The notes below the pieces were generated by a model. The model worked only from the letters and a program-made list of their open reading frames with translations. It searched no databases and had not been told where the DNA came from. This document shows positions 6,051 to 28,964 of a DNA stretch of 64,000 nucleotides, in pieces (positions within the stretch are counted from its first letter, which is position 1; every line of letters begins with the position of its first letter). Origin of the DNA: a virus (lineage: Duplodnaviria; Caudoviricetes); IMG/VR virus record IMGVR_UViG_3300022305_000561; one strand, 5' to 3'. The position numbers were made by a program, and so were the translations under genes.

Positions 6051-6164
6051 TACAGTTTCCAATTCTTATAAATAGTAATGAAACAAAAAATGCCAATCAC
6101 GGGTTTCTGACACCCTATTGGCTCTAATCATTCTTTCAATAATCAAGGACTATTATGACCAGCA
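6051..6164 (+). promoter_or_regulatory. Endonuclease leader: late promoter + conserved hairpin + RBS
   Basis: TATAAATA at 6067-6074; stem GCCAAT(6092-97)/ATTGGC(6117-22); CTCTAATCATTC; AGGA; ATGACCAGCA. Confidence 0.8.
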
Positions 6165-6815
6165 ACGATATTTATTCCCCAATTACCCCAACCTATCTCT
6201 GCATCAAACAACATTCCATCACCAAGAAAAAATATTTCGGCAAGACCACAAGATCAGATCCAATAAAGTATAAAGGATCAGGAGTTTACTGGGGTCTTCA
6301 TATCAACAAGCACGGTAGGCAGTTCGTCGAAACAATCTGGCTATCCGATCTATACTACGATACCTCTATAGTAGAACAAGCACTCCATTTCTCACACGAA
6401 AACAGCATCGTCGAATCAGACGATTGGGCAAATATAATCCCAGAAAATGGATTAGATGGAGCTCCTGCAGGTAATAAAAAAAGGACCACATTCTGATGAA
6501 ACAAAATCTAAAATATCTGCTGCTATGATAGGTAAGAAAAGAGGTCCCCAATCCGATGAGCGTAAATCTAAACAATCTATTGCTATAACAGGCAAAAAGG
6601 CTTCTGATGAAACAAAAGCTAAACAATCTGCTGCTAAGGTAGGTAAGAAGAAAGGTCCACATTCAGACGACCATAAAGAAAAATTATCTGCTGCTATGAT
6701 AGGTAAGAAGAAAGGTCCTCCTTCTGACGAAACTAAGGCAAAAAGAGCAGTAACTAGAGCTGCTAATAAAGCAGCTCGTCTATTGTTAAAAGAATTAATC
6801 ATCAACGATTTGTAA
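6155..6815 (+). pseudogene. GIY-YIG (Seg-like) homing endonuclease with NUMOD3 repeats, frameshifted at an A7 run (6476-6482)
   Basis: TYLCIKQHSITKKKYFGKT...YKGSG catalytic half (6155-6496); HSDETKSKISAAMIGKK repeats in the +1 frame (to 6815). Confidence 0.8.
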
Positions 6816-6816
6816 A

Positions 6817-7908
6817 CTAAAAGAAGTCATCAAGTGTCGCCTTCTCCTCTAATACCCATCCCATTGGATCAATAATATTCCCTAGAGGATCCAAGAATAC
6901 CTTTTCAAACTGATAATCATAATCCACATATTTGTGAAGCCCAAACTCAACTGGCAACTCAGATGGAAATGCTATCACATTCTCTTTGATTGTGTTGGGT
7001 TTTTTGAGATATATGAACTTGATCTTATCCCCAGACTTGATAGGTGGATATTTGCTTGTCAACCCCAATTCTTTAAGAAGATGATTATACAACAATGCTC
7101 CTCTAACATGAATCGGACAACCTTTAGCATAGATCGATACGTTACTACTATATTCAGCAACACCATTCACACCTCTTGGAAATGCTATATCCTCAATAGG
7201 AATACTCGTAAACTCTTTTCTAGCCAATTCAATGAACTTGATAAGGTCACCATTAGTTCCGTCAAGGATAACGCCTATAGTTGACTTCAGTTTATCTCTA
7301 ATTGCCTGTGGTGTTGAAGACTTTACGATTTCCAAACCCATAATCTTAAGTTTAGGTTGGTCATATTGAACGCCCTCAGAGTTATGAACTCTAAGAATAT
7401 ACTTCTTCTTTCTACACCAAACACCCTTATCAGCCAGAACTTCTCGCTTCATCTGCATCTTGTTTTGAAATGCATTCATATAAGATGCTAGATCAGCATA
7501 AGACTTTTCAATGATTGGAGTTATAACTTGACTGCAAAACTTATCCATGAACTTAATCTTTTCATCAGTTGTTTTACCAACTTGAGTTTGTTCAACTAAA
7601 GTTTCTAATGCTAGGTAAACTGAGTCAGTATCAATCGCAATGATATAATCCTTATCAACAGTCTTCATTGATGTGTTCATATACAAATTAAGAGTATTGG
7701 CGATCCACTTGATCGAAAGTTGACCAGACACAGTAACACTCTCTGCCATTCTCAAATCATAGTATCTAAAGTATGCATTACCCAATGCTCCATATGCTGA
7801 GTTCAAAGCAATCTTCAAAGCCATCTGAAGATTAGTCAGCCGTGAGATTTCTTTCCCTGTACTAACTTTCAACTTTAATAAATCTGAATCACTCATTTCT
7901 TCAAACAT
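6817..7908 (-). CDS. 43: DNA polymerase gp43B (C-terminal fingers/palm/thumb)
   Basis: [38 protein letters not shown]-terminal clamp-binding TLDDFF. Confidence 0.95.
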
Positions 7909-7960
7909 AAAATCTCCAATAATAAAGTTATATTATACTATAAATCATAATAAAAGTAAA
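7906..7960 (-). promoter_or_regulatory. Internal promoter TTTACT-N17-TATAAT and RBS for gp43B
   Basis: -35 at 7955-7960, -10 at 7932-7937, GGAG RBS; 35 nt identical to the gp41-B upstream region. Confidence 0.8.
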
Positions 7961-7961
7961 T

Positions 7962-8023
7962 AGTGAGTTTCCAATTCTTATAAATAGTAATAAACAAAAA
8001 AAATGCCAATCACGATGCGTCAA
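7962..8023 (+). repeat. Truncated endonuclease-leader scar within the gp43 split
   Basis: GTGAGTTTCCAATTCTTATAAATAGTAATAAACAAAAAAAATGCCAATCACG with no following ORF. Confidence 0.8.
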
Positions 8024-8078
8024 CAAAATAGGTGCAGGAAACAGTATGAAAAGATGGCATTTTGATAACTGTAAGTTA

Positions 8079-9542
8079 TTACAACCCTCTTCTACTTAAC
8101 TCAGCCTTTATATTTTCATATTTTTGTTCTTCATCTAACATTTGTCTTTTGAATCCAACGCGATTGTTATACATTGTTTCCATTAAACTAGGCAAAAATC
8201 CTTGCTTATCATTCTTATAACACCATCCATTAGCTGAGACAGATAATCCTGTCTCAGGAATAGGTTCTTTCTTAAGCAATCCCTCAATAGTAAGGTTTAA
8301 TCTCGTATCAGCAATCATCTCAGGACTGATGTTATATTGACGAATTAGTGAAGGATATAAACTTGCCAAATCGAACGATGCTACCCATTTATGCATACCC
8401 TTTATAGGATCTTTGACGTATGCACCCTCAAACGCTTCACCTTTAGAATGATGTTCATTGTTAGGAATAACAACTTTCTTCTTCAACAAATCGTTATAGA
8501 TGATAGCATCCCATAGCTTCACAGGACTAAACGCATCATTATAGTTAATCTTTGCTGTATAAGCCATCGTTAGATGTAACTCAATCAACCTTAACTTATC
8601 TTCTAACTTATCAACTATGTCAACATCTTTTATGTTGTAGTCGACGAACAACTCAAAGTCTTTTGTATAGAAGTCCTTGAATGATGCAAACTGACTATGA
8701 TCAACTTTCTTTTCGTCTAACTCAACAAAGCCAATATGGTCAAGTTTATAAGATTCTTGAGTAGTGAATGTGTATTTCTTATAAAGAACGATGTAATCTA
8801 ATGAAGATATACCCACCAGATCAAACATTAGTTCTTCAGTACCACGAATATTAATTTTCTTTTCGTTAACAATATTCCAAGGTGATAACTTCTTATAATC
8901 ATCACCAAGAACCTTTTTGATACGATTGACTAAGTAAGGAATATCAAACAAGTCAGTATTCCAACCTGTGATAACATCAGGCATATTACATTGCCAATGA
9001 GTCAAGAACTTCCTCAATAAATCCTGTTCATTCTTACACAAGACATAGTTGTTTGCAAACTTACCTGTATATGGTCTTGAACCAAAGGTTTTATACTCTT
9101 TAGACTTGTTATCTTGGATAGTGATTAGCAGAATCTCTTCAGCTGCATACTTAGGTTCTGGAAAGGCATCGGCTTCAGTTGCAGTTTCAATATCGATTGA
9201 AACTATCTTCATCAAATCTGAATCGAAGATTATATCTTCAGGATGAGTCTCAGAGATATACTGATAAGCATAGTTAGTTTGACCAAAGATATTGAACGAC
9301 CCAACTCCCTCATAAGTTTTGATGAATTCCTTACAATCATTAATGTTTCCTGGTTTTATCTCATATGCTGGAATATCATTTAATGTAGACCATTCAGTGG
9401 GTACTGATGCAGTTTTAGTATTGGTTGTGTACAAGGTAGGATAAAAGTCTACCTTCTGTTTTTGCGGAAGTCCGTCCCGAATAGAACGAACTAAAAGTTG
9501 ACTGCCATATTGGAGACAGGATGTGTAGAATGATGTTGACAT
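8079..9542 (-). CDS. 43: DNA polymerase gp43A (N-terminal, 3'-5' exonuclease, palm motif A)
   Basis: SIDIET, ITGWNTDLFDIPY, YNIKDV, SFDLASLYPSLIRQYNISPE; ends in the fingers helix. Confidence 0.95.
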   Translation of the reverse strand: MSTSFYTSCLQYGSQLLVRSIRDGLPQKQKVDFYPTLYTTNTKTASVPTEWSTLNDIPAYEIKPGNINDCKEFIKTYEGVGSFNIFGQTNYAYQYISETHPEDIIFDSDLMKIVSIDIETATEADAFPEPKYAAEEILLITIQDNKSKEYKTFGSRPYTGKFANNYVLCKNEQDLLRKFLTHWQCNMPDVITGWNTDLFDIPYLVNRIKKVLGDDYKKLSPWNIVNEKKINIRGTEELMFDLVGISSLDYIVLYKKYTFTTQESYKLDHIGFVELDEKKVDHSQFASFKDFYTKDFELFVDYNIKDVDIVDKLEDKLRLIELHLTMAYTAKINYNDAFSPVKLWDAIIYNDLLKKKVVIPNNEHHSKGEAFEGAYVKDPIKGMHKWVASFDLASLYPSLIRQYNISPEMIADTRLNLTIEGLLKKEPIPETGLSVSANGWCYKNDKQGFLPSLMETMYNNRVGFKRQMLDEEQKYENIKAELSRRGL

Positions 9543-9569
9543 TGTAGCTCCATAATTTAAGTATAGTTC

Positions 9570-9598
9570 ATTATACTACCGTTTTGGTATTTTGTAAA
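9570..9598 (-). promoter_or_regulatory. Promoter TTTACA-N17-TATAAT upstream of gp43A
   Basis: Consensus boxes with 17-nt spacer. Confidence 0.75.
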
Positions 9599-9600
9599 GA

Positions 9601-10161
9601 CTATATTGGATACATCAGTTGAACAGCATCGTAGGCTGCGTCTCCCACTGGATCATGTTTGATTACCTTTTGGACATCAAAATCTTTCAGGCTAACTTCA
9701 CAATATCCTTTCTTAGAAGTCGATGCTAATATGTCTATTGCAGTTCGTGTGTCTCTATATTGGTTATACAAAACTAATGGCTTTGCGCTAATAGCATTAC
9801 ACAAACTTTCCATTGCCATCTGGTCAAGAGCACCACGAGTCCAAAGTATTTTTGTAGGAGATGGATCTGTATTTAGATAATTACGTAGGAGTTCTATACC
9901 TTCAATAGCAGACACATCGTGTTTGGAAGGGTTGAGGCTAGTTTGTTTTGCAAAGTCACATTGATTCTTCCACCACTCTAAGGTAGATTTGGAAACGGTG
10001 CGTTTGTATTTTTGGATTTGTTCTTGAGCATCAAACTTCACAAAGATAGATTTTTCAATCATTTCTTCATAAGTCATACCATCGTTAAAATATACCATTG
10101 CGGCTGATAAGATAACGCAGGTACTTTCAGTCGATAAGGTCTCGATATCTAGCACAATCAT
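9601..10161 (-). CDS. DexA-like DnaQ-family 3'-5' exonuclease
   Basis: LDIETL, TLEWWKNQ, WTRGALD, RDTRT, KHDPVGDAAYD. Confidence 0.75.
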   Translation of the reverse strand: MIVLDIETLSTESTCVILSAAMVYFNDGMTYEEMIEKSIFVKFDAQEQIQKYKRTVSKSTLEWWKNQCDFAKQTSLNPSKHDVSAIEGIELLRNYLNTDPSPTKILWTRGALDQMAMESLCNAISAKPLVLYNQYRDTRTAIDILASTSKKGYCEVSLKDFDVQKVIKHDPVGDAAYDAVQLMYPI

Positions 10162-10186
10162 TCAATTTCTCCATAATTAAAACACT

Positions 10187-10215
10187 ATTATACCTGACTA
10201 TCCGAAAATAGTCAA
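10187..10215 (-). promoter_or_regulatory. Promoter TTGACT-N17-TATAAT
   Basis: Consensus boxes with 17-nt spacer. Confidence 0.75.
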
Positions 10216-10230
10216 GTATATTTTTAGAAT

Positions 10231-10539
10231 TTAGATAATCAATTTACGATCTGGAACTTGTATCAATGGTGCTTCTTCAGGTTCTTCAAACTTTGAATTA
10301 TATTCATCGATCAAACCTTGAACAGGAGTACCAACAGATACAATAGCAGATTTGTAGATATTGGTAGTACCATCAACATAAGGCATATATTGGGCTATCA
10401 TAATACCCATAGTGCCATCTTCTCTTGATTGAATAGCGATTTGAGCAGGATTTGATGTTGTGAATTGAAAGGCATCTTCATCGACAACAATAGCCAGTAA
10501 TTCTTCACCGCTTGATAATTTGAAACATTTTGTCGTCAT
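10231..10539 (-). CDS. Conserved T4-like hypothetical protein (Sm-like fold family)
   Basis: KCFKLSSGEELLA...YMPY...LIDEY pattern typical of this family. Confidence 0.55.
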   Translation of the reverse strand: MTTKCFKLSSGEELLAIVVDEDAFQFTTSNPAQIAIQSREDGTMGIMIAQYMPYVDGTTNIYKSAIVSVGTPVQGLIDEYNSKFEEPEEAPLIQVPDRKLII

Positions 10540-10572
10540 CTTATATTCCTAAGGTCAATATATTAAAATACT

Positions 10573-10601
10573 ATTATACTATAAAGTTACATAAAAGTAA
10601 A
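10573..10601 (-). promoter_or_regulatory. Promoter TTTACT-N17-TATAAT, back-to-back with an endonuclease late promoter
   Basis: Flanking sequence nearly identical to 7931-7970. Confidence 0.75.
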
Positions 10602-10602
10602 T

Positions 10603-10707
10603 AGTGAGTTTTCAATTTGTATAAATAGATATAGGTGTTACTCACGGATGGCTGTCCTAGTAACTCTAATCATTCTACTATTAATTCAGGAACTAATATG
10701 ACCAGCA
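10603..10707 (+). promoter_or_regulatory. Endonuclease leader (late promoter + hairpin)
   Basis: TATAAATA at 10620-27; GTTACT(10637-42)/AGTAAC(10659-64); CTCTAATCATTC; ATGACCAGCA. Confidence 0.8.
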
Positions 10708-11408
10708 CAAGTATATATACACCCTTTTTACCAGACCAATATTGCGTTTATCATACCACTTATTCCGGAAAACTTCTACCTCAAAACTATATTGGCTCAT
10801 CATCAGTAGACAATGTTCTAAATAAAAATTATCACGGTTCAGTGGTATCAGAACGATACAAGTCAATATGGTTATCTGAATTAAAACTCCATCCCGAACT
10901 GTTTTCAACAGTAATAGTATCTTACCACGATACCAGATCAAATGCAACATATAAAGAACTTCAGGTACAAAGAACATTAAATGTTGTTAAAAGCGAGTTA
11001 TTCGTCAATAGATCATATGCCTCCGTATATGGGTTTACCGATACAACATACACACCAGAAGAAAAAGAGGTAATGAGTAAGAAACTATCTACTGGACATG
11101 CTAATAGAACTCCTGAAGAAAAAGCAAAAACGAGTAAGAAAATGTCAGATGCGCGTAAAGGAAAAAAGCAATCAGAAGAACATATATCTAAAAGATCTGC
11201 TGCTAATACAGGACTAAAAAGATGTCCTCGTTCTGATGAGTATAGAACTAAACAATCTGTTGCACATACAGGTAGGAAAAGAGGTCCTCAATCGACAGAA
11301 CATAGGAATAAACTATCTTCTATATTCTTCTTCTTAATATCAACTAAGAAAAGTTATACTAAAAGAGCATTAACTAGATATTTTCCCGAGTTCAAGCAAT
11401 TTTATTAA
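10698..11408 (+). CDS. GIY-YIG-like homing endonuclease with NUMOD3 repeats
   Basis: YCVYHTTY...NYIGSSS...YHGSV; repeats QSEEHISKRS, RSDEYRTKQS, QSTEHRNKLS. Confidence 0.8.
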   Translation: MTSTSIYTPFLPDQYCVYHTTYSGKLLPQNYIGSSSVDNVLNKNYHGSVVSERYKSIWLSELKLHPELFSTVIVSYHDTRSNATYKELQVQRTLNVVKSELFVNRSYASVYGFTDTTYTPEEKEVMSKKLSTGHANRTPEEKAKTSKKMSDARKGKKQSEEHISKRSAANTGLKRCPRSDEYRTKQSVAHTGRKRGPQSTEHRNKLSSIFFFLISTKKSYTKRALTRYFPEFKQFY

Positions 11409-11434
11409 AAAAAGGAGGTATAATATACCTCCTT
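11406..11434 (-). terminator. Rho-independent terminator between hsp20 and the convergent endonuclease
   Basis: AAAGGAGGTAT-AAT-ATACCTCCTTT inverted repeat with a T tract on the minus strand. Confidence 0.75.
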
Positions 11435-11447
11435 TAGATGCACCCAA

Positions 11448-11915
11448 CTACTCTAGCAACAACTTGCTTAAAGTAGAATTGATCTCTAACTTTTTAGGGA
11501 TCAATTCCTCTGGGACAATATGATTCAGGTAGATTTTGAGTAATCCATCTTGTAATGTTACATCAGAAATTTCTACACGTTCTGCCAATGTGAAAGTCCG
11601 TTTAAATGCTCTTGATGATAGACCCCTATGAAGATATACCTCAAAGGCACCATCCAGTGTTGCTTTACCACCAACAGTAAGGCTTCTGTTTAACAATTCT
11701 ACTTCAATATCTTCTTTTTTGAAACCTGCGACAGCAATCTCAATCACATATTTGGTATCCCCAATACTTTTAATATTATATGGCGGATAGTTCGATTGAT
11801 TCTTTAAGTTTGCTTCTTTTGATTTTCTAATAGAATCTTGCTCCGATTCAAATCCAATGAAGAATTTAAGAAGGTCAGTATCGATTCTAGGTAAAAAGGG
11901 TTGTGTTGTAAGCAT
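11448..11915 (-). CDS. Small heat shock protein (Hsp20/IbpA-like)
   Basis: NYPPYNI...YVIEIAVAGF...YLHRGLSSRAFKRTFTLA...DGLL...PEE. Confidence 0.92.
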   Translation of the reverse strand: MLTTQPFLPRIDTDLLKFFIGFESEQDSIRKSKEANLKNQSNYPPYNIKSIGDTKYVIEIAVAGFKKEDIEVELLNRSLTVGGKATLDGAFEVYLHRGLSSRAFKRTFTLAERVEISDVTLQDGLLKIYLNHIVPEELIPKKLEINSTLSKLLLE

Positions 11916-11966
11916 TGTATTCTCCAATTAAGCGAGATTTAAGTTTGCTACCCCGAAGGCATAGCG
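11913..11966 (-). promoter_or_regulatory. ROSE-like RNA thermometer candidate in the hsp20 leader
   Basis: UUCG hairpin, then UCUCGCU able to pair with the SD UGGAGA. Confidence 0.5.
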
Positions 11967-12028
11967 ATAAATGGGAAGTTTTGACTTTGCCCCCACAAAG
12001 TTTCGGTGGCTGCGAACCGCCTGAAATC

Positions 12029-12211
12029 TTACTCTTCTTCTGTTGCTTCTTCAGGAGACTCTGCTTGAAGCAATTGAATTGCTGATTCACCTTGGCTTCT
12101 AATCTTACTAACTAAGACAGCAACTTCATCAAATGGGTGCTTACCTAAGACAGCTAAGATGATGTTAATTTCTTTTAATGATAATGTAATTTCAATGTCT
12201 GGGTTTTCCAT
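12029..12211 (-). CDS. Hypothetical protein
   Basis: 60-aa ORF with GGAG RBS. Confidence 0.6.
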   Translation of the reverse strand: MENPDIEITLSLKEINIILAVLGKHPFDEVAVLVSKIRSQGESAIQLLQAESPEEATEEE

Positions 12212-12310
12212 AATATCTCCATGGTTGTTTAAAATGTACTACGTGAATCTTGTTTCCAAGAATAGGTGCTCCGTGCAATTCCTTTGGTCGACTAATCCTA
12301 AGCCTTTTTG

Positions 12311-12733
12311 TTATTTCCTGACGCCAATAGCATACTTTTGTACGAGTTGCCATTGAGGTTTTTCCGCATAAGACAATATCTTGATTGAAGATAATGATGT
12401 CCTATTTTGAGTCTTTTCTGCATCTACTACTTTCAACAGATTCCAATCCTGAAGTAATATCGCAATGGTGTTTCTACGTTCAATGTCGCCCATACTTATA
12501 TTGGTTCCCTTACCATCCAAGGCAAATAGTTCTTTAAAATGGATTATGTAGTACCTACCTTGTTTGTGAAGGATGTGACAAGATTGATAAAGAGTATTAT
12601 CCTTTCTTGATGCCACACCAATTCTTGTTAATGTTTCTTTGATCTTTAGAAAACTATCAGGTTCAGGGATCACAATCTCCAACATAGATTCTATAGTCCA
12701 ATCCAAATATACCGCATTATCATTATATTCCAT
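12311..12733 (-). CDS. regA: Translational repressor RegA
   Basis: FLKIKETLTRIGVASRKDNTLYQSCHILHKQGRYYIIHFKELFALDG. Confidence 0.97.
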   Translation of the reverse strand: MEYNDNAVYLDWTIESMLEIVIPEPDSFLKIKETLTRIGVASRKDNTLYQSCHILHKQGRYYIIHFKELFALDGKGTNISMGDIERRNTIAILLQDWNLLKVVDAEKTQNRTSLSSIKILSYAEKPQWQLVQKYAIGVRK

Positions 12734-13113
12734 TATTTTCCGCCCTTGTTTTGTTTTTCTCTGATATAGCTAAGTTGACCCTCTGATAGGATATTTAGTA
12801 TGCCTTTTGCTTCTCGTTTTGAGTAACCATAAAAAGCACACACATTCTCAAGATCCTCAGAAACAGACTCTTTTGGAGCCCACTTCGAGAATCTTTTTTT
12901 CTTACTTATACTATGTATCAAAAACGAAAACTGTTGTTGGTTGGAAAGATCAGGATAATGATTCATCTCATTGGCATACATTATCGTATCAGGGAAATAA
13001 GACAGACTTCTATTCACGATGAACGGAACATAATCCTTATTTGCCTGAGGATCTTGGAACATATCCTCTTTGGTAAAGTTGATAGCATTTACAAACTCAA
13101 ATGGTGTACTCAT
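12733..13113 (-). CDS. 62: Clamp loader small subunit gp62
   Basis: YVPFIVNRSLSYFPDTIMYANEMN...KKRFSKW. Confidence 0.92.
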   Translation of the reverse strand: MSTPFEFVNAINFTKEDMFQDPQANKDYVPFIVNRSLSYFPDTIMYANEMNHYPDLSNQQQFSFLIHSISKKKRFSKWAPKESVSEDLENVCAFYGYSKREAKGILNILSEGQLSYIREKQNKGGK

Positions 13114-13150
13114 AATATATTCTACTAGATTGTACAAAGGGTGGAGAAGA

Positions 13151-14122: not shown

Positions 14123-14170
14123 AGTATAGTAGAATGGTGACGCATTAGATGCCGCCTCAATGTTTAGTTC

Positions 14171-14830: not shown

Positions 14831-14872
14831 TTTTAATTCCTCATTATTTAATATAATATAATACTTCATTTT

Positions 14873-15241: not shown

Positions 15242-15243
15242 TA

Positions 15244-16423: not shown

Positions 16424-16430
16424 CCTTTAT

Positions 16431-18650: not shown

Positions 18651-18738
18651 TGAATTTGCCGCAGCGAACCCATCTGCTGCTTTAATTTTCTTGACTTCTC
18701 GGCACTAGAAACCTTATGTCTGGGGCGTTAGCAAAACT

Positions 18739-18797: not shown

Positions 18798-18802
18798 AAA
18801 CT

Positions 18803-18878
18803 TGGAGCGGACGACTGGGTACGATCCAGCAACATTCTGATTGGAAATCAGATACTCTACCAATTGAGTTACGTCCGC
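18803..18878 (-). tRNA. tRNA-Gly(TCC)
   Basis: GCGGACG/CGTCCGC acceptor, TCTGA-TTTCCAA-TCAGA anticodon arm, U73, encoded CCA, 76 nt. Confidence 0.92.
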
Positions 18879-19356: not shown

Positions 19357-19392
19357 TTAGGTGCCACTTATGCTTAGGGAGCATTTATAACT

Positions 19393-19775: not shown

Positions 19776-19849
19776 TTTATATATCCTCATTTCAATAAGT
19801 TTACAACACAAATTATATTATACTACGGTAGTTCTAAAAAGTAAAGTCT

Positions 19850-20125: not shown

Positions 20126-20200
20126 AATATATTTTCTCACTTGGTTTATTTAATTTATAAGTAATTATACCTCATCTAAAACCAAAAGTAAAGCATTATT

Positions 20201-21913: not shown

Positions 21914-22989
21914 ATAATTTCTTTTGCATCAAGATATAAAGATTTCATAAAGGATTTAATCTTATCACGGTTTGTGTCATCAGCGACTGAATCAACATAA
22001 CCCTCAAGCACTTCTAAGGTGTTTTCAATACTTATTTGAGTTGTATCAACAACTCCCTCTGAGAAATCAGACAAATCTTCAAGTATCTTAATCTCATAGG
22101 TATCGCTTTCATAAAGTTTCTTTAGGAACTGATCAAACTTATAATAATCTGTTTTCTTTACTACTACTATTTTGATATACTTCTGTTGAAACTGCTCTAT
22201 ATCAATAGTATCATAATCAACTAATTCATCATTGTATTCGTGTCTAAGAAACATTGTATAGGGATTCTTAATGAATTCTGTTTGTCTTGTTTCTGTATCG
22301 AATATATGAAATCCTTTCTGGTCATTGTAATCAGACCAAGTCATTTCATAAGGAGTGCCGACATAATGAATATTTTCTTTATCAGATTTAGTATGAAAAT
22401 GACCTGAATAAACACCTTCATATTTGGCGAACATTTTGTAATTTATTTCTCCAGAATCAATAAGTTGTTTCAATTCTTTAGATACATCTTGTCCTTTATA
22501 CATCGGAAAATTGGAAAACTCAAAATGCCCGAAGCATAAATCAGATTTACTATCTCGGATAAACTCGAATGCTTCTTCTACATTCTCTTTACATATCCAA
22601 GGAATGATGTCGATAGATGTATTATCGACATCCCATTTTGTCATCTTATCATAAATATGAAGATTTGTAAACTCACCAAGTAATAATCCTGTAGAGTTTA
22701 CAGATAATGATTCACGATAATAAAGATCGTGATTACCCAACAATGTACATAGAACTATACCAGCATCTTGTAGTGGTTGAAAGAAGAACCTTTTACTTTC
22801 AGCCAAAGTATTGAAGTTGATATACTTTCTTCTATCAAACATATCACCAAGTTGCCATACAACTTTAATGTCATTTTCAATAAGATATGGCAGGAAGACA
22901 TTAGTATAAAACTTATCTTGTAGGGCAAGAAAGTTAGGACTATCTGATCTTACGCCAAAATGAGTATCACCGCAGATTGCTATCTTCAT
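21910..22989 (-). CDS. 47: Recombination endonuclease subunit gp47 (Mre11-like)
   Basis: GDTHFG, LGDMFDRRK, GNHD, SGHFH. Confidence 0.96.
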   Translation of the reverse strand: MKIAICGDTHFGVRSDSPNFLALQDKFYTNVFLPYLIENDIKVVWQLGDMFDRRKYINFNTLAESKRFFFQPLQDAGIVLCTLLGNHDLYYRESLSVNSTGLLLGEFTNLHIYDKMTKWDVDNTSIDIIPWICKENVEEAFEFIRDSKSDLCFGHFEFSNFPMYKGQDVSKELKQLIDSGEINYKMFAKYEGVYSGHFHTKSDKENIHYVGTPYEMTWSDYNDQKGFHIFDTETRQTEFIKNPYTMFLRHEYNDELVDYDTIDIEQFQQKYIKIVVVKKTDYYKFDQFLKKLYESDTYEIKILEDLSDFSEGVVDTTQISIENTLEVLEGYVDSVADDTNRDKIKSFMKSLYLDAKEII

Positions 22990-23516
22990 TCAGATATCAC
23001 ATCTAAAGTTTGACAAGTCGGAACTATTACTTTTGGAACCTTTACCTTTCTAACAACATTTGGCAACTCAGCGTCTGAAAACTCAGCCAAGAACTCTCTG
23101 TATGAGTTGACAAACTCTGCATCATCATCTTGTTCTTGAAGTTCAAATACTATGTTACCTACAGATTGGATAATTTTATGTTTAAGTTGATATTGTATCT
23201 TCTCTTTTGCAATCCTACGAAGGTATGCAAAGTATATAATTTGAGTATAATAAGAGAATGGATTGGACGACTTCTCAGGATTGAACTTATCAAAATATCT
23301 GATGCAGTTTTCAATACCATCACAAATCATTTCATCTTTGAATGAGTATCCATTGAAGTTACCCTTGTTGGCAAGATTGTTTGCAATCTTTAGAACACAC
23401 TCACCAAGATAGTTGGTGATTTGAGGTTTCTCATCACCTTCTTTAAGTTTAGATAGAAGTTCTTTTCTTTCAAGTATTGCTGCAAAAAAATCCTTGTTTG
23501 ATACATACTCAGCCAT
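22986..23516 (-). CDS. 55: Late transcription sigma factor gp55
   Basis: YVSNKDF, DEMICDGIENC, NPFSYYTQIIYFAYLRRIAKEK. Confidence 0.95.
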   Translation of the reverse strand: MAEYVSNKDFFAAILERKELLSKLKEGDEKPQITNYLGECVLKIANNLANKGNFNGYSFKDEMICDGIENCIRYFDKFNPEKSSNPFSYYTQIIYFAYLRRIAKEKIQYQLKHKIIQSVGNIVFELQEQDDDAEFVNSYREFLAEFSDAELPNVVRKVKVPKVIVPTCQTLDVISE

Positions 23517-23546
23517 TTCAATCACCTATTAATTAAATATAATAAT

Positions 23547-23575
23547 ATTATATACTACATCATCTAAAAAGTAAA
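23547..23575 (-). promoter_or_regulatory. Promoter TTTACT-N17-TATAAT upstream of gene 55
   Basis: Consensus boxes with 17-nt spacer. Confidence 0.75.
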
Positions 23576-23579
23576 GTAT

Positions 23580-23890
23580 ATTGAATTTAGGAAGTTTATG
23601 TTAAAAGCATAAACTCTAAAACCTTCAAAATACCTTATTTATTTTCCATCTAAATCAATAACTTACAAATCATTTATTCGCTTAAATATCGTAATCTGTA
23701 TAAAGTTACGTCTTGTTTATACTTAAATGTGTTTAAAATGACTTCTTTTTATGTATTTAAGTTATAAATCAATAGATTAGAGAAATGTTCTCTTAGGATA
23801 TAAGGCAAAAAATATCAATTCTCAAAGTCTTGACTTTTGCCTGTTTTTATAGTATACTTTATCTGTGGTTGGGTTAAGTAGATTTATAGA
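23580..23890. other. AT-rich noncoding region with two IHF consensus sites and an antisense promoter; candidate origin
   Basis: WATCAA-N4-TTR at 23653-65 and 23767-79; plus-strand TTGACT-N17-TATACT at 23830-23858. Confidence 0.45.
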
Positions 23891-24215
23891 TTACTTAATA
23901 TCCACTTGATGTAACTTAAGATCAAATTGCTCTTCTGAGTAGGCCTTAACTCTCTCGGCAAAGTGATTCAAAGTATGATTCATAGATGACTTATAGGAAA
24001 GGTCATCTGCCACATCGTAAAGCACACAGGATGATTTGCCTTCCCTCAACCTAAGACCTCGTCCTATAGATTGGAAGTTTCGTATTTTACTCTTAGTTGG
24101 ACTAGCAAAGATAATATTCTCAATAGATGGAATATTAATACCAGTAGAGAAAGTTGCGTCAATAGGACGCAATAATAATTGCGCCCCTGACCTCCTGTAT
24201 TTTTTCTGGTAACAT
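23891..24215 (-). CDS. uvsW: UvsW helicase C-fragment, interrupted by TGA + frameshift (4 extra nt at 24158-24161)
   Basis: MLPEKIQEVRGAIIIASY* then ATFSTGINIPSIENIIFASPTKSKIRNFQSIGRGLR (SF2 motifs V/VI) in the next frame. Confidence 0.8.
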
Positions 24216-25087
24216 TAAGATAGCCTTTTAGATTTCGATTTATCCTTCACCCAATAAAATCCTATTGGGCACTCTTTTGTTTTTGTTTTATTTATACCAT
24301 CTGTCCAAATCCTTAAACCTACTCTAGAGGATTTTTGCCTATCCCTAAAATCCTGATCCTCCCACATCGTTTTTATTTTTTCTCCAGCATCTAATCGCTT
24401 ATCAATATTTGTATTGACTATTAACATCTTTTCATTAAAAGCTATTTTATATTCATCATCCCTTTCATCCCATACTTTTTGTTGAGAAATAGAGGATTTT
24501 ATTTTTTCTTCTGGTCTATTCTTAAACTCAGACTGATATTCTGAAAACGATATTCTACGATCATCAGTCCAAGAATCCTGGGATGATTGTTTATGCTTAG
24601 CCTTTGTTTCAGGATTTAACATGTGTATGTGTATAGATGTTGATATACCATTTTTCACTTGTTCTCTTGCTATGATAGCTCGCTTTGCTCTGAATCCATC
24701 GTATTTTTCGGTATCTTTTTTTAGAACTTCCCACGCTGATGTAGAACCCTTAGACATCATATCTCTATATTCTTCAGAAGTCAAATCACTTCTCATAAAC
24801 CTAAGAGGGTTTATGAATTTATTTATAGGATATGCCTGAGCCAACAGTTTATGTGCCTGAACGTGGGTTGAATATTCTAATTTTACTAGATTCCAAGAAC
24901 AATCTATAAACTGAGGGAATATGCTCTTAGGTAATATGTGATGTATTTCGGCATAAACGCCCTCATTGCATACTTTTGTTATTAAACTAAGATATTCTTC
25001 TAGATATGATAAAGATTCTGGAGCACCTAATTCTTCATCTAATTTTGATTGAAAAAAAATATTATTATATATACTTATGCTGGTCAT
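24215..25087 (-). CDS. HNH homing endonuclease inserted in uvsW
   Basis: AEIHHILPKSIFPQF..CSWNLVKL...HVQAHKLL; C-terminal IWTDG..KT; family leader at 25078-25180. Confidence 0.88.
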   Translation of the reverse strand: MTSISIYNNIFFQSKLDEELGAPESLSYLEEYLSLITKVCNEGVYAEIHHILPKSIFPQFIDCSWNLVKLEYSTHVQAHKLLAQAYPINKFINPLRFMRSDLTSEEYRDMMSKGSTSAWEVLKKDTEKYDGFRAKRAIIAREQVKNGISTSIHIHMLNPETKAKHKQSSQDSWTDDRRISFSEYQSEFKNRPEEKIKSSISQQKVWDERDDEYKIAFNEKMLIVNTNIDKRLDAGEKIKTMWEDQDFRDRQKSSRVGLRIWTDGINKTKTKECPIGFYWVKDKSKSKRLS

Positions 25088-25180
25088 AATGGTTTCCATT
25101 GTTGAATGATTAGAGTTAGTGGGTTCCGAGGCCGCGACTAACACCTTTTACTATACTATTTATAAGAATTGGAAACTCTA
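25078..25180 (-). promoter_or_regulatory. Endonuclease leader (late promoter + hairpin)
   Basis: TATAAATA at 25157-64; GTTAGT/ACTAAC stem 25115-25142; CTCTAATCATTC; ATGACCAGCA. Confidence 0.8.
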
Positions 25181-25184
25181 GATT

Positions 25185-25354
25185 ATGAATCCAGACAAAC
25201 TTGAATATCAATGCCCCTATTGCCACGAGTGGATATTGAAAACTCAATATAGCAACCACGAAAACTTGCATATCAATGAATGGTTAATGCACCAACAACA
25301 CTAGATGAACTAGAACGAAGATTAAGACCTTTGGGATTGTTTGACGAAAGATAA
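25185..25354 (+). pseudogene. Paralog of the 5870-6046 C2H2 zinc-finger gene, frameshifted after the finger
   Basis: MNPDKLEYQCPYCHEWILKTQYSNHENLH...* (stop 25302-04); homologous tail PTTLDELERRLRPLGLFDER* in another frame, ending at 25354. Confidence 0.7.
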
Positions 25355-26725
25355 TTTAATTTTGTTTGCTATCCAAATATCACAAACATCGTCATTTAAG
25401 GTTATATCTTTAGCAAACTTAACCTCGCCAGATGTCATTTTTATTTTTTCATTATTAGGCACTTTTATATCTATTCCTTTGAATGTAAATATTTTTCCAT
25501 CAAACTCATTCTCTGTTTCCTTTCTTATGTATTCCCTATCCTCAGTCTTGACTTCACCAGACACATAAAATATTTTTCTACCATCTTCAGCTCTATCAAC
25601 AATCATCTTATGTAGAATCTTACCGTGTTTAGCAACAAACTGAAACAGGACTAAAGTGTTACCATCTTGTTTCAAGGCAAGGTTAGTTATAAACTTATTC
25701 CTTCCTTCGTGGGATACAAGAAAGTCCATTTCATCTTGGTACTTCATACCTTTATATAACTTCCTAACTTCTTCTGGATATTTCAATAACAAACATTTAA
25801 TATCAAGTTGAACGACTCTATTTGAATCCATCAACTGTTTGGTAGTAATAACCCTATGAAGAGGTCCCATTATTCCTTCAAGTTGAAGTTGATTCACTTG
25901 TGAGTTATCTATTGTACCAGTAGTTCCAATTCTATACTTGACGTCAGTCATATTCTCAAACATAGAAGTGATTGAGGCACCCTTTGCTAAATGTGCTTCA
26001 TCACATATTACCGCATCAAATTGGTTGTAAAAGTCTTTACCAATACCATCTAATGCCCCACCTGCTTTGTTACGCCATGAACTCTGCCAAGTAGTAATAA
26101 GAACATTCAACGAGAAGTCTTTTGAAAGACCTGAGTACAATTTCTGACAGTTATCTTCTGTTGACCAATTATTACCAGTTGAATAATCATCAAAGTCCGC
26201 ATACAACTGCTCAACTAACGAAGTCGTTGGCACAATGATAAGAACTTTCATATTCTTCGCCAAGAACCATCTAATCAACGTATAGATAATCAAACTCTTA
26301 CCAGAAGCAGTAGGCGATAAGAGTACAGTCTTGCAAGTATTCAAAGATTTATGAATAGCGTCTATTTGATAATCCCTTATCTCAATAGGCGTTCCTTTTG
26401 AACAAGGATTAATTATCTTTGCAAATCCTTCTACTTGTGCAGAAGTAATACCCATATCATAGGATATATCGGTATCTATTTCTAATGTGTGATTATTCCT
26501 TTCTGCAAACTCTTTTACATAATCAATAAGACCAGAATACAACTTTTTAGTTTGAAGATTATATAAACGACTGAACCCGTCCCAAAGTCGAGCCTTAAAT
26601 TTCGGGGAGAACTTAGCTCCTGGAACTGGGAACTTAAAGAACTCTGATAATTCTTGTTCTGTAGATGGATCAGAGAATAATCTTATATGAACTTCATTCA
26701 TTTTTTCAACTTTGATTAATGTCAC
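25322..26725 (-). CDS. uvsW: UvsW helicase N-fragment with a 60-aa non-helicase tail
   Basis: RDYQ, SPTASGKS, IVPTTSLVEQ, DEAH, GTTGT, LVLFQF...HG; lacks motifs V/VI. Confidence 0.92.
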   Translation of the reverse strand: MTLIKVEKMNEVHIRLFSDPSTEQELSEFFKFPVPGAKFSPKFKARLWDGFSRLYNLQTKKLYSGLIDYVKEFAERNNHTLEIDTDISYDMGITSAQVEGFAKIINPCSKGTPIEIRDYQIDAIHKSLNTCKTVLLSPTASGKSLIIYTLIRWFLAKNMKVLIIVPTTSLVEQLYADFDDYSTGNNWSTEDNCQKLYSGLSKDFSLNVLITTWQSSWRNKAGGALDGIGKDFYNQFDAVICDEAHLAKGASITSMFENMTDVKYRIGTTGTIDNSQVNQLQLEGIMGPLHRVITTKQLMDSNRVVQLDIKCLLLKYPEEVRKLYKGMKYQDEMDFLVSHEGRNKFITNLALKQDGNTLVLFQFVAKHGKILHKMIVDRAEDGRKIFYVSGEVKTEDREYIRKETENEFDGKIFTFKGIDIKVPNNEKIKMTSGEVKFAKDITLNDDVCDIWIANKIKLSFVKQSQRS

Positions 26726-27166
26726 CTAACCACCAGCCAAGAATGCTTTGTATTGAATACAGTTTTTGATTGACCAAGTTCTGTCAGCAATAGATTTCAA
26801 GATTGATTCAAGCAGATAGATTGTTGCAGTGAGGTATTCAAGTTTCAAATCCATTGCGGTGATATGTTCATCACCCTTTAGAAACTCATCCATCTCATTT
26901 TTCAAGGGTTTGGTATACTGCCATTGTTCCCAACCAAGATCAAGAAGTTCTTGTCTGGATAGTTCACCACGGTAGTATCTAAACTTATTCTTTCTAAGGG
27001 TATTGTAATCAACCTTAGTTTTGCTGAATCGCAACTTAGTATTCATCAACAATGATATGTACTTAGCATGTAATTTAGAAGTCTTTACAGATTCATCATC
27101 AAGATGATTAGAGGAAATAATACAGTCCATATCCCATAGGTTTTGTATTTCATCAATTGTGGCCAT
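26726..27166 (-). CDS. uvsY: Recombination mediator UvsY
   Basis: LHAKY...YYRG...RTWSIKNCIQYKAFLAG; position next to uvsW. Confidence 0.88.
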   Translation of the reverse strand: MATIDEIQNLWDMDCIISSNHLDDESVKTSKLHAKYISLLMNTKLRFSKTKVDYNTLRKNKFRYYRGELSRQELLDLGWEQWQYTKPLKNEMDEFLKGDEHITAMDLKLEYLTATIYLLESILKSIADRTWSIKNCIQYKAFLAGG

Positions 27167-27180
27167 AATATTCTCACTTA

Positions 27181-27699
27181 TTATATAAATTTATAGTATG
27201 TATACTCGAATGTAGCGTTGCAAGTAATGTACTGAACATCGTTTGATGTAGTAATGAATGTGATAGCACCTAATGATGTTGGTATCAAATCAACAAATTG
27301 AACGGTTTGTACAGGCATATTATTAGATCCAAGAACCTCCAAGATACCATCTGAACTGTTTTTTGCTAAGTCAGATAGGAATGGAGTTTTATTACGATTC
27401 TGCCAACTTATGTATTGATCATATGCCTCAGGGAATCCTAATGCAACTAACCAGTCAGATATGGCTAGGTAGTTTGCCATATTTTCATCAACAATAAACT
27501 CTATGTTCAAGGTCTCATATGTTAATTGAACACCAGGAAGTTTGAGTTGAACGAATGGAGTTTCGTATACAACGTTAGGTAGATTGATTCCAGGAATGCT
27601 AACTTGTTGAGCGAAGTATGTTAGTTCTGGCAACTTTTTAATTGCGAACTGAAACCCATTTGGGGATAGAGGATTAAGATTTGCAGGAAGAGTAAACAT
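27181..27699 (-). CDS. 3: Tail completion / sheath stabiliser gp3
   Basis: NPLSPNGFQF..LP...YFAQQVSIPGI...FIVDENMANY...F.Y..Y. Confidence 0.85.
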   Translation of the reverse strand: MFTLPANLNPLSPNGFQFAIKKLPELTYFAQQVSIPGINLPNVVYETPFVQLKLPGVQLTYETLNIEFIVDENMANYLAISDWLVALGFPEAYDQYISWQNRNKTPFLSDLAKNSSDGILEVLGSNNMPVQTVQFVDLIPTSLGAITFITTSNDVQYITCNATFEYTYYKFI

Positions 27700-27714
27700 A
27701 GTGTATATCCTTAT

Positions 27715-28866
27715 TTAGATATTAGTATTTATAAGGGATTTGCTGGCTCTTGGTTTCATACCCTTTTTCCAAGATGGATTTGGCTCGTCTCCCTTTGGAA
27801 CATAGAAATTTGTAATACCATCATTATAAACAACAGCGTCTTTCCTTTGCTTTGTAGAGGCAGCAGTTTGTGCTGACCTATCTCTAGGGAGTTGTCCTTT
27901 TATCCACTCACCACCAGGATCCTGTTTGAACTTCTTCATAATAGATCCATTGTTATAAAAACTAGAACCAGTATTAACCTCAGCAGCCAATTTAGATCTT
28001 TTTACATTTTGGTTCTGTTTGTTTTCTGTATAAGGAACAATCAATCCAAGTTCTTGTATGACTGGGTCTGAAGTAGAAATGTATCCGTATTTGGTAACTC
28101 CATCAGGATAGTAGAAAGTGAACTTACCTTTCATTTTGGTAGATTGTTTTCCATTACCTTGTAATCTGATATATTCATAATCTTCAGGGGACTTGGGATT
28201 ATGCCAACCTTGATTAAGCAATTCTGTATATTCGTCTGATTGGATTTGTATTGTTTTAACTTGATCAAGTAAATATAGTTTAATAGTTCTACAATGATCT
28301 TTAGATCTAGCCATAAGTTCTTTAGATTCATCAGTCATAGTTAAACCAGCATTATTTCCAACTAAGTTCAACTCTTGTATAGTTGTGTCATCTTTATGTA
28401 AATAATATTTGGCTCCATTAGAATCTTTATAAGTAGCCATATTTGAATGTTCTAATGATCTTTGGATAGATGCATCTTCTCTAAGTTTTGATAAAGTTAG
28501 TCTAATATATTTTGTAGGTATTTTTCTATATGAAAGTTTATCGTTTGTAGATTCATTGAAATTAAATAACATACACTCTAATGCCCTTGATTGAGAACCG
28601 CCAAAAGTTTTCCATAGAATAACGTGAGCTATAATATGTTGATGTGCCGTTAGGTTAATAATATTCCAAGAAAAAAGTATTTTGTTAGTGTATTCTGGAA
28701 ATAAGTCTTTTGCTTTAGGATAGATATGATGTCCTTCAGTATAAACCCAATCTATATTATTTGAATTTTTTAATCTACACCCATCAATGAACTTTAGATA
28801 TCTATTGAGATAATGTGCATTGTGGGGTTTACTTGAAAGGATTGTATAAATATTATTGCTGGACAT
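27715..28866 (-). CDS. HNH-like homing endonuclease downstream of gene 23
   Basis: YTEGHHIYPKAKDLFPEY...NLTAHQHIIAH; YNNG/YNDG C-terminal repeats. Confidence 0.85.
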   Translation of the reverse strand: MSSNNIYTILSSKPHNAHYLNRYLKFIDGCRLKNSNNIDWVYTEGHHIYPKAKDLFPEYTNKILFSWNIINLTAHQHIIAHVILWKTFGGSQSRALECMLFNFNESTNDKLSYRKIPTKYIRLTLSKLREDASIQRSLEHSNMATYKDSNGAKYYLHKDDTTIQELNLVGNNAGLTMTDESKELMARSKDHCRTIKLYLLDQVKTIQIQSDEYTELLNQGWHNPKSPEDYEYIRLQGNGKQSTKMKGKFTFYYPDGVTKYGYISTSDPVIQELGLIVPYTENKQNQNVKRSKLAAEVNTGSSFYNNGSIMKKFKQDPGGEWIKGQLPRDRSAQTAASTKQRKDAVVYNDGITNFYVPKGDEPNPSWKKGMKPRASKSLINTNI

Positions 28867-28964
28867 AGTAGTTCCTTGTAATTACGATTAGAATGTTTAG
28901 AGTTAGTAGGTCTGACCACCGTGACTAACACCTATTACTATTTATACAAATCAAAAACTCACTC
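28857..28964 (-). promoter_or_regulatory. Endonuclease leader (late promoter + hairpin)
   Basis: TATAAATA at 28939-46; GTTAGT/ACTAAC stem 28902-28929; CTCTAAACATTC; ATGTCCAGCA. Confidence 0.8.

What the first reader, a model, noticed from the sequence alone, without database searches (positions are those of the whole stretch)
6051..28964. Covarying structured leader shared by endonucleases of different catalytic families
Seen: four copies (6051-6164 +, 10603-10707 +, 25078-25180 -, 28857-28964 -) have TATAAATA, then a 6-bp outer stem with compensatory changes (GCCAAT/ATTGGC, GTTACT/AGTAAC, GTTAGT/ACTAAC). Next come a CRC/Y internal loop, an inner GG..CC stem with variable loop, CTCTAA(T/A)CATTC, an RBS and ATG(A/T)CCAGCA. 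Two copies drive GIY-YIG-like and two drive HNH genes, so the leader moves independently of the nuclease domain. Established: T4 homing endonucleases are controlled by late promoters and RBS-sequestering hairpins. Inference: a conserved cis-regulatory RNA (protein-binding site or switch) or an element terminus; it may be undescribed.
Basis: partly seen in the sequence, partly recalled or inferred. Interest (0 to 1): 0.8.

Follow-up and report, generated by a model that had tools for sequence, protein, structure and literature searches.

The report
Antisense RNA module heading phage homing endonucleases
Four selfish nuclease genes in this uncultured T4-like phage, and at least 80 distinct relatives in other uncultured phages, share a control module of about 100 bases whose conserved RNA fold fits the strand opposite the gene; this suggests an undescribed antisense RNA, not an ordinary mRNA leader, but no transcript has been seen.

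Summary
Four intact copies and two fossils lie in the window, and pattern scans found 81 distinct relatives in viral and metagenome contigs. Rfam has no match on either strand.

The outer hairpin covaries strongly: 8 of 10 pairs carry compensatory changes.

The fold is selected on the strand opposite the nuclease gene:
- In three helices the non-Watson-Crick pairs are almost all G.U on the antisense strand, which read as A.C mismatches on the sense strand. Counts: 23 versus 2 at variable positions of the two aligned helices, 104 versus 2 in the third.
- The invariant CTCTAAWCATTC box and codons 1-3 form a continuous 8-bp helix only in antisense RNA.
- Codons 5-8 (the conserved "IY") are the reverse complement of a T4-type late promoter. 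It places +1 exactly at the start of that helix, and this spacing survives in subfamilies with other coding contexts.

Best reading: a two-hairpin cis-antisense RNA of about 80 nt covers the Shine-Dalgarno sequence and start codon and limits nuclease translation. Transcription, termination and repression are inferred.

This scan has noted comparable "two-faced" modules on other phage DNA; I found none in the published papers searched.

The parts
6067..6074 (+). Copy 1: forward late-promoter motif TATAAATA
6080..6163 (-). Copy 1: predicted antisense RNA. The 5' hairpin is complementary to the start codon and SD. The 3' hairpin is the complement of 6092-6122 and is followed by a U6 tract.
   Evidence: CM 81.2 bits; fold -22.4 kcal/mol, z -2.66
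6169..6176 (-). Copy 1: antisense late-promoter-like 8-mer AATAAATA inside codons 5-8, 5 nt before the predicted +1
6155..6815 (+). Copy 1 nuclease gene, split into two overlapping frames (6155-6496 and 6456-6815). The second frame carries NUMOD3.
10573..10601 (-). Outward sigma-70/T4-early-like promoter TTTACT-N17-TATAAT at the left edge of cassette 2
10620..10627 (+). Copy 2: forward late-promoter motif
10625..10706 (-). Copy 2: predicted antisense RNA (3' hairpin = complement of 10637-10664)
   Evidence: CM 84.3 bits; fold
10712..10719 (-). Copy 2: antisense 8-mer TATATATA, one mismatch from the late-promoter consensus
10698..11408 (+). Copy 2 nuclease gene (GIY-YIG-like motifs; phrog_10820 and phrog_314)
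25157..25164 (-). Copy 3: forward late-promoter motif
25079..25154 (+). Copy 3: predicted antisense RNA (3' hairpin 25115-25142)
   Evidence: CM 74.9 bits; fold
25066..25073 (+). Copy 3: antisense 8-mer TATATATA
24215..25087 (-). Copy 3 nuclease gene (HNH-type: phrog_655 and phrog_12434)
28939..28946 (-). Copy 4: forward late-promoter motif
28858..28941 (+). Copy 4: predicted antisense RNA (3' hairpin 28902-28929)
   Evidence: CM 80.4 bits; fold
28845..28852 (+). Copy 4: perfect antisense TATAAATA inside codons 5-8
27715..28866 (-). Copy 4 nuclease gene (HNH-type: phrog_655 and phrog_12434)
3474..3561 (+). Fossil cassette: late promoter and the 5' half of the copy-1-type hairpin, with the rest decayed
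   Evidence: (16.4 bits)
7950..8025 (+). Fossil cassette in the gap of the split DNA polymerase. It keeps the outward promoter (7960->7932), the late promoter and the first half of the hairpin.

Best explanation
The conserved fold belongs to an RNA made from the strand opposite the nuclease gene. A T4-type late-promoter motif is written in reverse complement inside codons 5-8 of the nuclease gene; this is why the peptide reads MTSxxIY. By the T4 spacing rule it would start transcription 6 nt downstream, at the complement of codon 3.

The resulting RNA of about 80 nt begins with GCUGGWCAU and forms two adjacent hairpins:
- A 5' hairpin of 8 bp plus 5-8 bp. Its arms are the complements of the start codon region and of the CTCTAAWCATTC box, and its apical loop carries the anti-Shine-Dalgarno CCU.

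This RNA is perfectly complementary to the nuclease mRNA from its 5' end to codon 3. It most likely pairs with that mRNA and limits translation of the nuclease at late times, as RNA-OUT does for the IS10 transposase.

G.U pairs keep the antisense RNA folded, while the same positions are A.C mismatches that leave the mRNA's ribosome site open.

Shown here: the conservation, the covariation, the strand asymmetry, the promoter motif at fixed spacing, and the codon-level constraint. Inferred: that the antisense promoter fires, where the RNA ends, that it pairs with the mRNA, and that it represses.
For: (1) Antisense alignment A2 (81 sequences): 99.8% of 1458 cells form standard pairs. 8 of 10 pairs of the 3' hairpin carry compensatory changes.
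(2) Strand asymmetry. At variable positions of the two aligned helices there are 23 G.U against 2 A.C, plus 162 invariant G.U cells. In the third helix, found by a strand-symmetric search, there are 408 Watson-Crick pairs, 104 G.U and 2 A.C. Counting only internal positions and each distinct helix once gives 33 against 1, binomial p = 4e-9.
(3) The box W pairs with base +4 of the ORF: T/A 58, A/T 19, A/C 3, C/A 2. Every exception is a G.U on the antisense strand. The sense AA/CC loop becomes two G.U pairs, giving a continuous helix CUGGWCAU/AUGWUUAG.
(4) The antisense strand folds better in 82 of 82 elements, mean -19.0 against -12.3 kcal/mol.
(5) Codon-level constraint. Codon 7 is TAT in 80 of 80 Tyr codons (one of the 81 elements has TCT), against 79% TAT elsewhere in these ORFs. 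The listed codon-5 variants all end in T whatever the amino acid. The antisense 8-mer is TATAAATA in 30 and NATAAATA in a further 16 of 81.
(6) Divergent members found by the covariance model keep the 8-mer, an N5 spacer (N4 in L047) and G(C/U)UG although the coding context differs: MNIY.. with the RNA start upstream of the ATG, and MYLS in another frame.
(7) TATAAATA lies 27-31 nt upstream of start codons in intergenic gaps elsewhere in the window, so this phage appears to use T4-type late promoters.
(8) The quality of the antisense promoter does not depend on the orientation of the neighbouring gene (Fisher p = 1.0). This argues for a role tied to the nuclease gene itself.
Against:
- Folding energies are unremarkable. 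Antisense z-scores are -0.4 to -2.7 for the four window copies.
- Only 46 of 81 elements have ATAAATA on the antisense strand. Window copies 2 and 3 have TATATATA, whose promoter activity is unknown.
- A run of 4 or more U after the 3' hairpin is present in only 29 of 81 elements, so the 3' end is uncertain and many transcripts may read on.
- In 40 of 53 scorable loci the upstream neighbour lies on the antisense strand, and 33 of 79 modules carry an outward early-type promoter. Supplying transcription to the neighbouring gene is therefore a real alternative or additional role.
- The elements were collected with patterns that fix the box and codons 1-3, so the invariance of those bases is partly ascertainment. 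The model-found variants do keep the pairing.
Confidence: 0.55

Rival explanations
1. Outward transcription module. The antisense late promoter, together with the outward early-type promoter present in about 40% of modules, restores transcription of the host gene next to the inserted nuclease gene. On this reading the two hairpins are a protective 5' leader of that long transcript and not a regulator of the nuclease. This reading is compatible with the best explanation; both roles may hold.
For: The upstream neighbour lies on the antisense strand in 40 loci against 13. An outward TT(G/T)AC-N16-18-TATAAT motif follows the 3' hairpin in 33 of 79 modules, against 0 of 79 on the sense strand and 1.8% background. 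The fossil at 7950-8025 keeps just this promoter in front of the second half of the polymerase gene. In copies 1 and 3 a small zinc-finger-like ORF starts right after the module on the antisense strand. T4 nuclease genes are known to carry promoters for neighbouring genes (PMC2988022).
Against: Antisense promoter quality is the same whether or not the neighbour could use it. A leader role does not explain why the hairpin is always centred on the nuclease gene's SD, nor the conserved bulged G's. The U-tract after the hairpin in the GCCAAT class would stop such transcripts.
Confidence: 0.2
2. Sense-strand mRNA leader. The hairpin at the 5' end of the late nuclease mRNA is a protein-binding site, switch or stabiliser.
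For: The outer hairpin can form in most sense transcripts and sits 3-17 nt after the forward late promoter in most members. Its internal loop is conserved.
Against: In the 53-sequence alignment the non-canonical pairs on the sense strand are 13 A.C and 1 A.A, with no G.U. The other two helices do not form on the sense strand. The distance from the forward promoter to the hairpin varies from 3 to 56 nt, and in 25 of 81 elements the start would fall inside the stem. The antisense promoter-to-helix spacing, by contrast, is fixed.
Confidence: 0.1
3. Composite terminator/promoter or DNA-level element. On the antisense strand the hairpin plus U-rich tail ends transcripts that run backwards through the nuclease gene, and the early promoter then restarts transcription (PeSL-like). 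Alternatively, the hairpin acts in single-stranded DNA during recombination.
For: A stem-loop followed by an early-type promoter occurs in 33 of 79 modules. A U-run is present in 29 of 81. The copies are mosaic: copies 1 and 3 share about 60 nt upstream but have different hairpins, as expected of recombination cassettes (PMC2839356, PMC4122927). G.T is also the least harmful mismatch in DNA.
Against: Most members lack a U-run. The stems are short, AU-rich and interrupted by conserved bulges. This reading does not explain the 5' hairpin, the fixed promoter spacing or the anti-SD loop.
Confidence: 0.12

Closest known systems
IS10 RNA-OUT / RNA-IN antisense control of a transposase
   Same: Facing promoters lie a few tens of bases apart at the 5' end of a mobile-element gene. 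A short, folded antisense RNA is complementary to the mRNA 5' end, ribosome site and start codon. The stems are interrupted by bulges.
   Different: Here the gene is a phage homing endonuclease. Both promoter motifs are of the T4 late type. The antisense promoter is written inside codons 5-8. The RNA has two hairpins. No transcript or repression has been shown.
Late-promoter / RBS-sequestering hairpins of T-even homing endonuclease genes (I-TevI, I-TevII, I-TevIII, segB, Aeh1 mobE; PMC2988022)
   Same: A late promoter lies directly upstream of a homing endonuclease gene, and RNA structure is used to keep the nuclease low.
   Different: In T4 the hairpin lies on the sense transcript, contains the RBS, and is escaped by late transcripts. 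Here the sense ribosome site is open and the helices form on the opposite strand.
CfrI antisense RNA of cyanophage S-PM2 (Millard et al. 2010, as described in PMC2984593)
   Same: An antisense RNA in a T4-like phage that overlaps a homing endonuclease gene.
   Different: CfrI is about 225 nt, a single locus linking psbA to the nuclease gene, and of unknown function. It is not a repeated portable cassette with covarying hairpins at the nuclease start. I could not read the primary paper.
PeSL composite terminator/promoter cassettes of T4-like phages (PMC2839356, PMC4122927)
   Same: Short repeated regulatory cassettes that combine a stem-loop with a promoter, move between unrelated genes and mark recombination points.
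   Different: PeSLs carry early promoters and sit in hyperplastic regions ahead of varied small ORFs. This module carries two facing late-promoter motifs, overlaps the first codons of nuclease genes, and has a fold with conserved bulges. Only about 40% of modules add an early-type promoter.

Membership tests
T-even homing-endonuclease leader (late promoter plus RBS-sequestering hairpin) | Late promoter immediately upstream of the endonuclease ORF | tested here: met
   TATAAATA lies about 80-90 nt upstream of the ATG in all four copies.
T-even homing-endonuclease leader (late promoter plus RBS-sequestering hairpin) | A stable hairpin on the sense transcript that contains the RBS | tested here: not met
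   In minimum-energy folds the sense ribosome site is essentially unpaired in copies 2 and 4 and only weakly paired in copies 1 and 3. Mean pairing probability is 0.33. The helix flanking the SD has 104 A.C mismatches on the sense strand.
T-even homing-endonuclease leader (late promoter plus RBS-sequestering hairpin) | Late promoter placed inside the hairpin so that late transcripts lack the inhibitory arm | tested here: not met
   The promoter precedes a hairpin that does not include the RBS. A possible pairing of an upstream box with the SD was seen by eye only in the copy-3 type and was not tested across the family.
cis-encoded antisense RNA control (IS10 RNA-OUT type) | Antisense promoter within the 5' end of the gene, facing the sense promoter | tested here: met
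   Met at motif level only. The antisense 8-mer is (N)ATAAATA in 46 of 81 elements. The 5-nt spacing to the helix start is kept in three coding contexts (4 nt in L047). Codon constraint is shown.
cis-encoded antisense RNA control (IS10 RNA-OUT type) | Folded antisense RNA supported by covariation on that strand | tested here: met
   99.8% of cells paired; 9 pairs with compensatory change; G.U against A.C asymmetry.
cis-encoded antisense RNA control (IS10 RNA-OUT type) | Antisense transcript exists and represses the gene | not testable with these tools
Any Rfam family | Match to a curated covariance model on either strand | tested here: not met
   At gathering threshold only a tRNA matches. The permissive scans of copies 1 and 4 give only sub-threshold, apparently chance matches (snoRNA-type on the module) and, upstream of copy 4, hits on a neighbouring terminator hairpin.
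PeSL terminator/promoter cassette | Stem-loop directly coupled to an early promoter | tested here: inconclusive
   An outward early-type promoter follows the hairpin on the antisense strand in 33 of 79 modules. A U-run follows it in 29 of 81.
Intrinsic terminator | GC-rich uninterrupted stem followed by a U-run | tested here: inconclusive
   The consensus scan of 5800-11000 (copies 1 and 2) did not flag the element. The U-run is mostly confined to the GCCAAT class.

The most novel reading that the evidence does not exclude
Homing endonuclease genes of a large clade of uncultured T4-like phages (several source contigs exceed 240 kb) carry a self-contained antisense-RNA control system. The antisense promoter is encoded within the protein's own first codons, and wobble pairs give the two strands opposite folding. 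The conserved boxes shared by all copies may let the antisense RNA of one nuclease gene act on the others in the same or a co-infecting genome, while the freely covarying stems tune copy specificity. That would be a regulatory layer of competition or truce among selfish genes.
Probability: 0.15. Interest if true: 0.85.

Novelty: new variant of a known kind. Interest (0 to 1): 0.66.

Why it matters
Homing endonucleases must be kept low and well timed, and the only described phage solution is the T4 sense-strand hairpin. If this reading holds, it gives:
- a second, widespread solution: a portable antisense RNA;
- a new RNA family with unusually clean covariation;
- an example of a promoter that dictates a conserved peptide (MTSxxIY) in unrelated enzymes;
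- a clear case where G.U against A.C asymmetry assigns the functional strand.

It also warns annotators that "structured leaders" of phage nuclease genes may belong to the other strand.

Tried and rejected
- Rfam, at gathering and permissive thresholds, gave nothing relevant.
- GenBank phages: no DNA match to the copy-1 locus or to the copy-2 module, by megablast and blastn respectively. The family is so far confined to uncultured contigs.
- No whole genome is held for this window, and sequencing runs are not available, so expression could not be checked.
- PDB sequence searches with the nucleases of copies 2 and 4 found no relatives.
- Thermodynamic z-scores are weak on both strands, so I do not use stability as evidence.
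- I considered that the W:W covariation merely reflects two subfamilies. I rejected this because both states occur with most hairpin classes and with diverse SD regions.
- I considered base composition as the source of the G.U excess. I rejected this after counting only internal positions flanked by Watson-Crick pairs and counting each distinct helix once.
- A CsrA-like reading of the SD loop and a YUNR U-turn motif were considered by eye and dropped for lack of support.
- I tested whether antisense promoter quality tracks neighbour orientation. It does not.


Full report
**Observation.** The 12-nt box CTCTAAWCATTC occurs exactly four times in the window. Rfam has no match on either strand. 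At gathering threshold only a tRNA at 18806-18878 is found, and the permissive scans of two copies give only sub-threshold, apparently chance matches.

The phage is a divergent T4-like virus. A 694-aa ORF is about 35% identical to cyanomyovirus peptidases. GenBank phages hold no similar DNA. TATAAATA sits 27-31 nt upstream of start codons in intergenic gaps elsewhere in the window, as expected of T4-type late promoters.

**The family.**
- A pattern joining the promoter to the box found 23 IMG/VR stretches.
- A pattern joining the box to ATGWCCAGC, which does not constrain the hairpin, found 91.
- The same pattern with N at both variable positions found more in metagenomes among many chance hits.
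- After filtering for the hairpin, 81 distinct elements remain.
- Several source contigs are 245-306 kb.

The downstream ORFs are homing endonucleases of many lineages. They include Pfam GIY-YIG, SegE_GIY-YIG, NUMOD3 and DUF7487, and the PHROGs 314, 655, 12434, 10820, 3339 and 7168. Beyond the first eight residues (MTSxxIYT) they are unrelated, with 14% mean column identity. For the window's own copies 1 and 2 the GIY-YIG assignment rests on motifs, NUMOD3 and PHROG hits. For copies 3 and 4 the HNH assignment rests on PHROG names and the HH..N motif.

**Covariation.** On the sense alignment A1 the hairpin is strongly supported. On the 16 pairs counted (the 10-pair hairpin plus 6 pairs of the box/start-codon helix), 97.6% of cells are paired, against 81% in shuffles and 25-43% when the partner is slid. 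Up to five pair types occur per position. The middle R of the CRC loop pairs with the opposite Y (AU 30, GC 17).

**The strand.** This is the main result. Every line of evidence places the selected fold on the strand opposite the nuclease gene.
- *Hairpin.* The non-canonical cells are 13 A.C and no G.U on the sense strand. On the 81-sequence antisense alignment A2, 99.8% of 1458 cells are standard pairs. At variable positions there are 23 G.U against 2 A.C.
- *Box and start codon.* The W of the box pairs with base +4 of the ORF: T/A 58, A/T 19, A/C 3, C/A 2. All five exceptions are G.U on the antisense strand. The neighbouring AA/CC "loop" of the sense strand is two G.U pairs on the other strand. 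Antisense RNA therefore has a continuous 8-bp helix, CUGGWCAU with AUGWUUAG. This explains why codons 2-3 (ACC AGC) are fixed at the nucleotide level in unrelated enzymes.
- *Third helix.* The 8-bp helix continues into a third helix that flanks the SD. A search that treats G.U and A.C alike finds 408 Watson-Crick pairs, 104 G.U and 2 A.C. Counting only internal positions and each distinct helix once gives 33 against 1, p = 4e-9. The apical loop is the anti-SD (CCUGU, UCCU, CCUU and similar).
- *Energy.* The antisense strand folds better in 82 of 82 elements, -19.0 against -12.3 kcal/mol. The ribosome site is mostly open in the sense RNA (0.33 against 0.67). Absolute stabilities are not exceptional, with z from -0.4 to -2.7, so I rest nothing on energy alone.

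**The antisense promoter.** Codons 5-8 read nnT-ATT-TAT-Ann, the reverse complement of TATAAATA.
- Codon 7 is TAT in 80 of 80 Tyr codons (one element has TCT), against 79% TAT elsewhere in these ORFs.
- The listed codon-5 variants all end in T whatever the amino acid.
- The antisense 8-mer is TATAAATA in 30 of 81, NATAAATA in 16, TATATATA in 13 (18 including first-base variants) and TATAAGTA in 12.
- With the T4 spacing (motif at -13 to -6; my knowledge of T4 late promoters) +1 falls on the G of GCUGG, one base before the first pair of the 5' hairpin.
- Divergent members found with covariance model R1 keep the 8-mer, an N5 spacer (N4 in L047) and G(C/U)UG in other coding contexts. One subfamily starts MNIY.., with the RNA start upstream of the ATG. 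One member starts MYLS, with the motif in another reading frame. So the DNA motif is conserved, not the peptide.
- By contrast, the forward promoter lies anywhere from 3 to 56 nt from the hairpin. In 25 of 81 elements it is so close that the sense transcript would start inside the stem.
- In the window, copy 4 has a perfect antisense TATAAATA (28845-28852), copy 1 has AATAAATA, and copies 2 and 3 have TATATATA.

**What the RNA would be and do.** The predicted RNA runs about 80 nt: a 5' hairpin with the anti-SD loop, one unpaired base, then the bulged 3' hairpin and a U-rich tail. It is fully complementary to the nuclease mRNA from its 5' end to codon 3. The closest mechanistic precedent is IS10 RNA-OUT/RNA-IN (my knowledge). 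I therefore propose late-time antisense limitation of nuclease translation.

**Uncertainties.**
- A U-run of 4 or more follows the hairpin in only 29 of 81 elements, mostly the GCCAAT class such as copy 1.
- In 40 of 53 scorable loci the upstream neighbour lies on the antisense strand.
- 33 of 79 modules also carry an outward early-type promoter just beyond the hairpin, against 1.8% background and none on the sense strand.

The module is thus two-faced, and feeding transcription to the neighbouring host gene is a serious alternative or additional role. T4 nuclease genes are known to embed promoters for their neighbours (PMC2988022). Against a pure neighbour-promoter role, the quality of the antisense promoter is the same whether or not a neighbour could use it.

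**Comparison with what is known.**
- The T-even scheme has a sense hairpin over the RBS that late transcripts escape (PMC2988022). The late-promoter feature is met; the two structural features are not.
- CfrI of S-PM2 is the only antisense RNA I found reported for a T4-like phage nuclease gene (PMC2984593). It is a single 225-nt locus of unknown function.
- PeSL cassettes (PMC2839356, PMC4122927) share the idea of a portable stem-loop/promoter unit, but they are early, sense-oriented and not nuclease-specific.
- Two literature searches found no description of this module.

**Earlier notes of this scan.** Follow-up agents reported comparable "two-faced" nuclease cassettes with antisense folds in other uncultured phages. 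Those notes prompted my strand test. All counts here are my own and come from this family.

**Verdict.** The element is real, widespread and uncatalogued, but it is most likely an antisense RNA gene fused to a bidirectional promoter cassette, not an mRNA leader. My confidence that the fold is selected on the antisense strand is about 0.8. My confidence that it is a promoter-driven repressor RNA is about 0.55.

Noticed in passing
window 6155-6815 (+): The copy-1 nuclease gene is split into two overlapping frames (113 aa and 119 aa). Intact homologues are 205-221 aa (L012, L015). This is a probable frameshifted pseudogene or a sequencing error, yet its module is intact.
   Followed up: partly
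window 5873-6046 (-) and 25185-25301 (+); L017:175-348; L001:386-559: Paralogous small ORFs (58 and 39 aa, both beginning MNP.KLEYQCP.C, with a Cys-x2-Cys ... His-x3/4-His pattern) start about 20 nt beyond the forward late promoter of copies 1 and 3, on the antisense strand. They would therefore be reached by any antisense transcript that reads through. Homologues lie at the 3' side of nuclease genes in two other contigs.
   Followed up: partly
window 3474-3561 (+) and 7950-8025 (+): Two truncated module fossils. The second lies in the gap between the halves of the split DNA polymerase gene and keeps an outward TTTACT-N17-TATAAT promoter (7960->7932).
   Followed up: partly
window 1158-1200 (-): A late promoter with the same upstream flank as the module (CCAATTCTTATAAATAGTAAT) heads another ORF without the hairpins or the box. 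The promoter part of the cassette can therefore occur alone.
   Followed up: no
window 5838-5866 (-), 10573-10601 (-), 7932-7960 (-): The same TTTACT-N17-TATAAT early-type promoter recurs on the minus strand in front of minus-strand genes beside modules or fossils. Its -35 complement (AAAGTAAA) is conserved upstream of many family members elsewhere.
   Followed up: partly
window 28965-28992 (-): A strong intrinsic-terminator hairpin with a T-run lies directly upstream of module 4. It accounts for all the weak Rfam sRNA-tail hits in that scan.
   Followed up: no
window 32605-32678 (+) and 30393-30429 (+): Sub-threshold model hits (16.8 and 12.8 bits) resemble the 5' hairpin and box at the starts of ordinary minus-strand ORFs. 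They may be decayed modules or chance matches.
   Followed up: no
L067:1305-3047 (+): A 581-aa ORF of unknown family begins MNIY and carries the subfamily-2 module. The cassette may therefore also head genes other than the GIY-YIG- and HNH-type nuclease genes seen here.
   Followed up: no
window 18806-18878 (-): A tRNA gene (64.5 bits).
   Followed up: no
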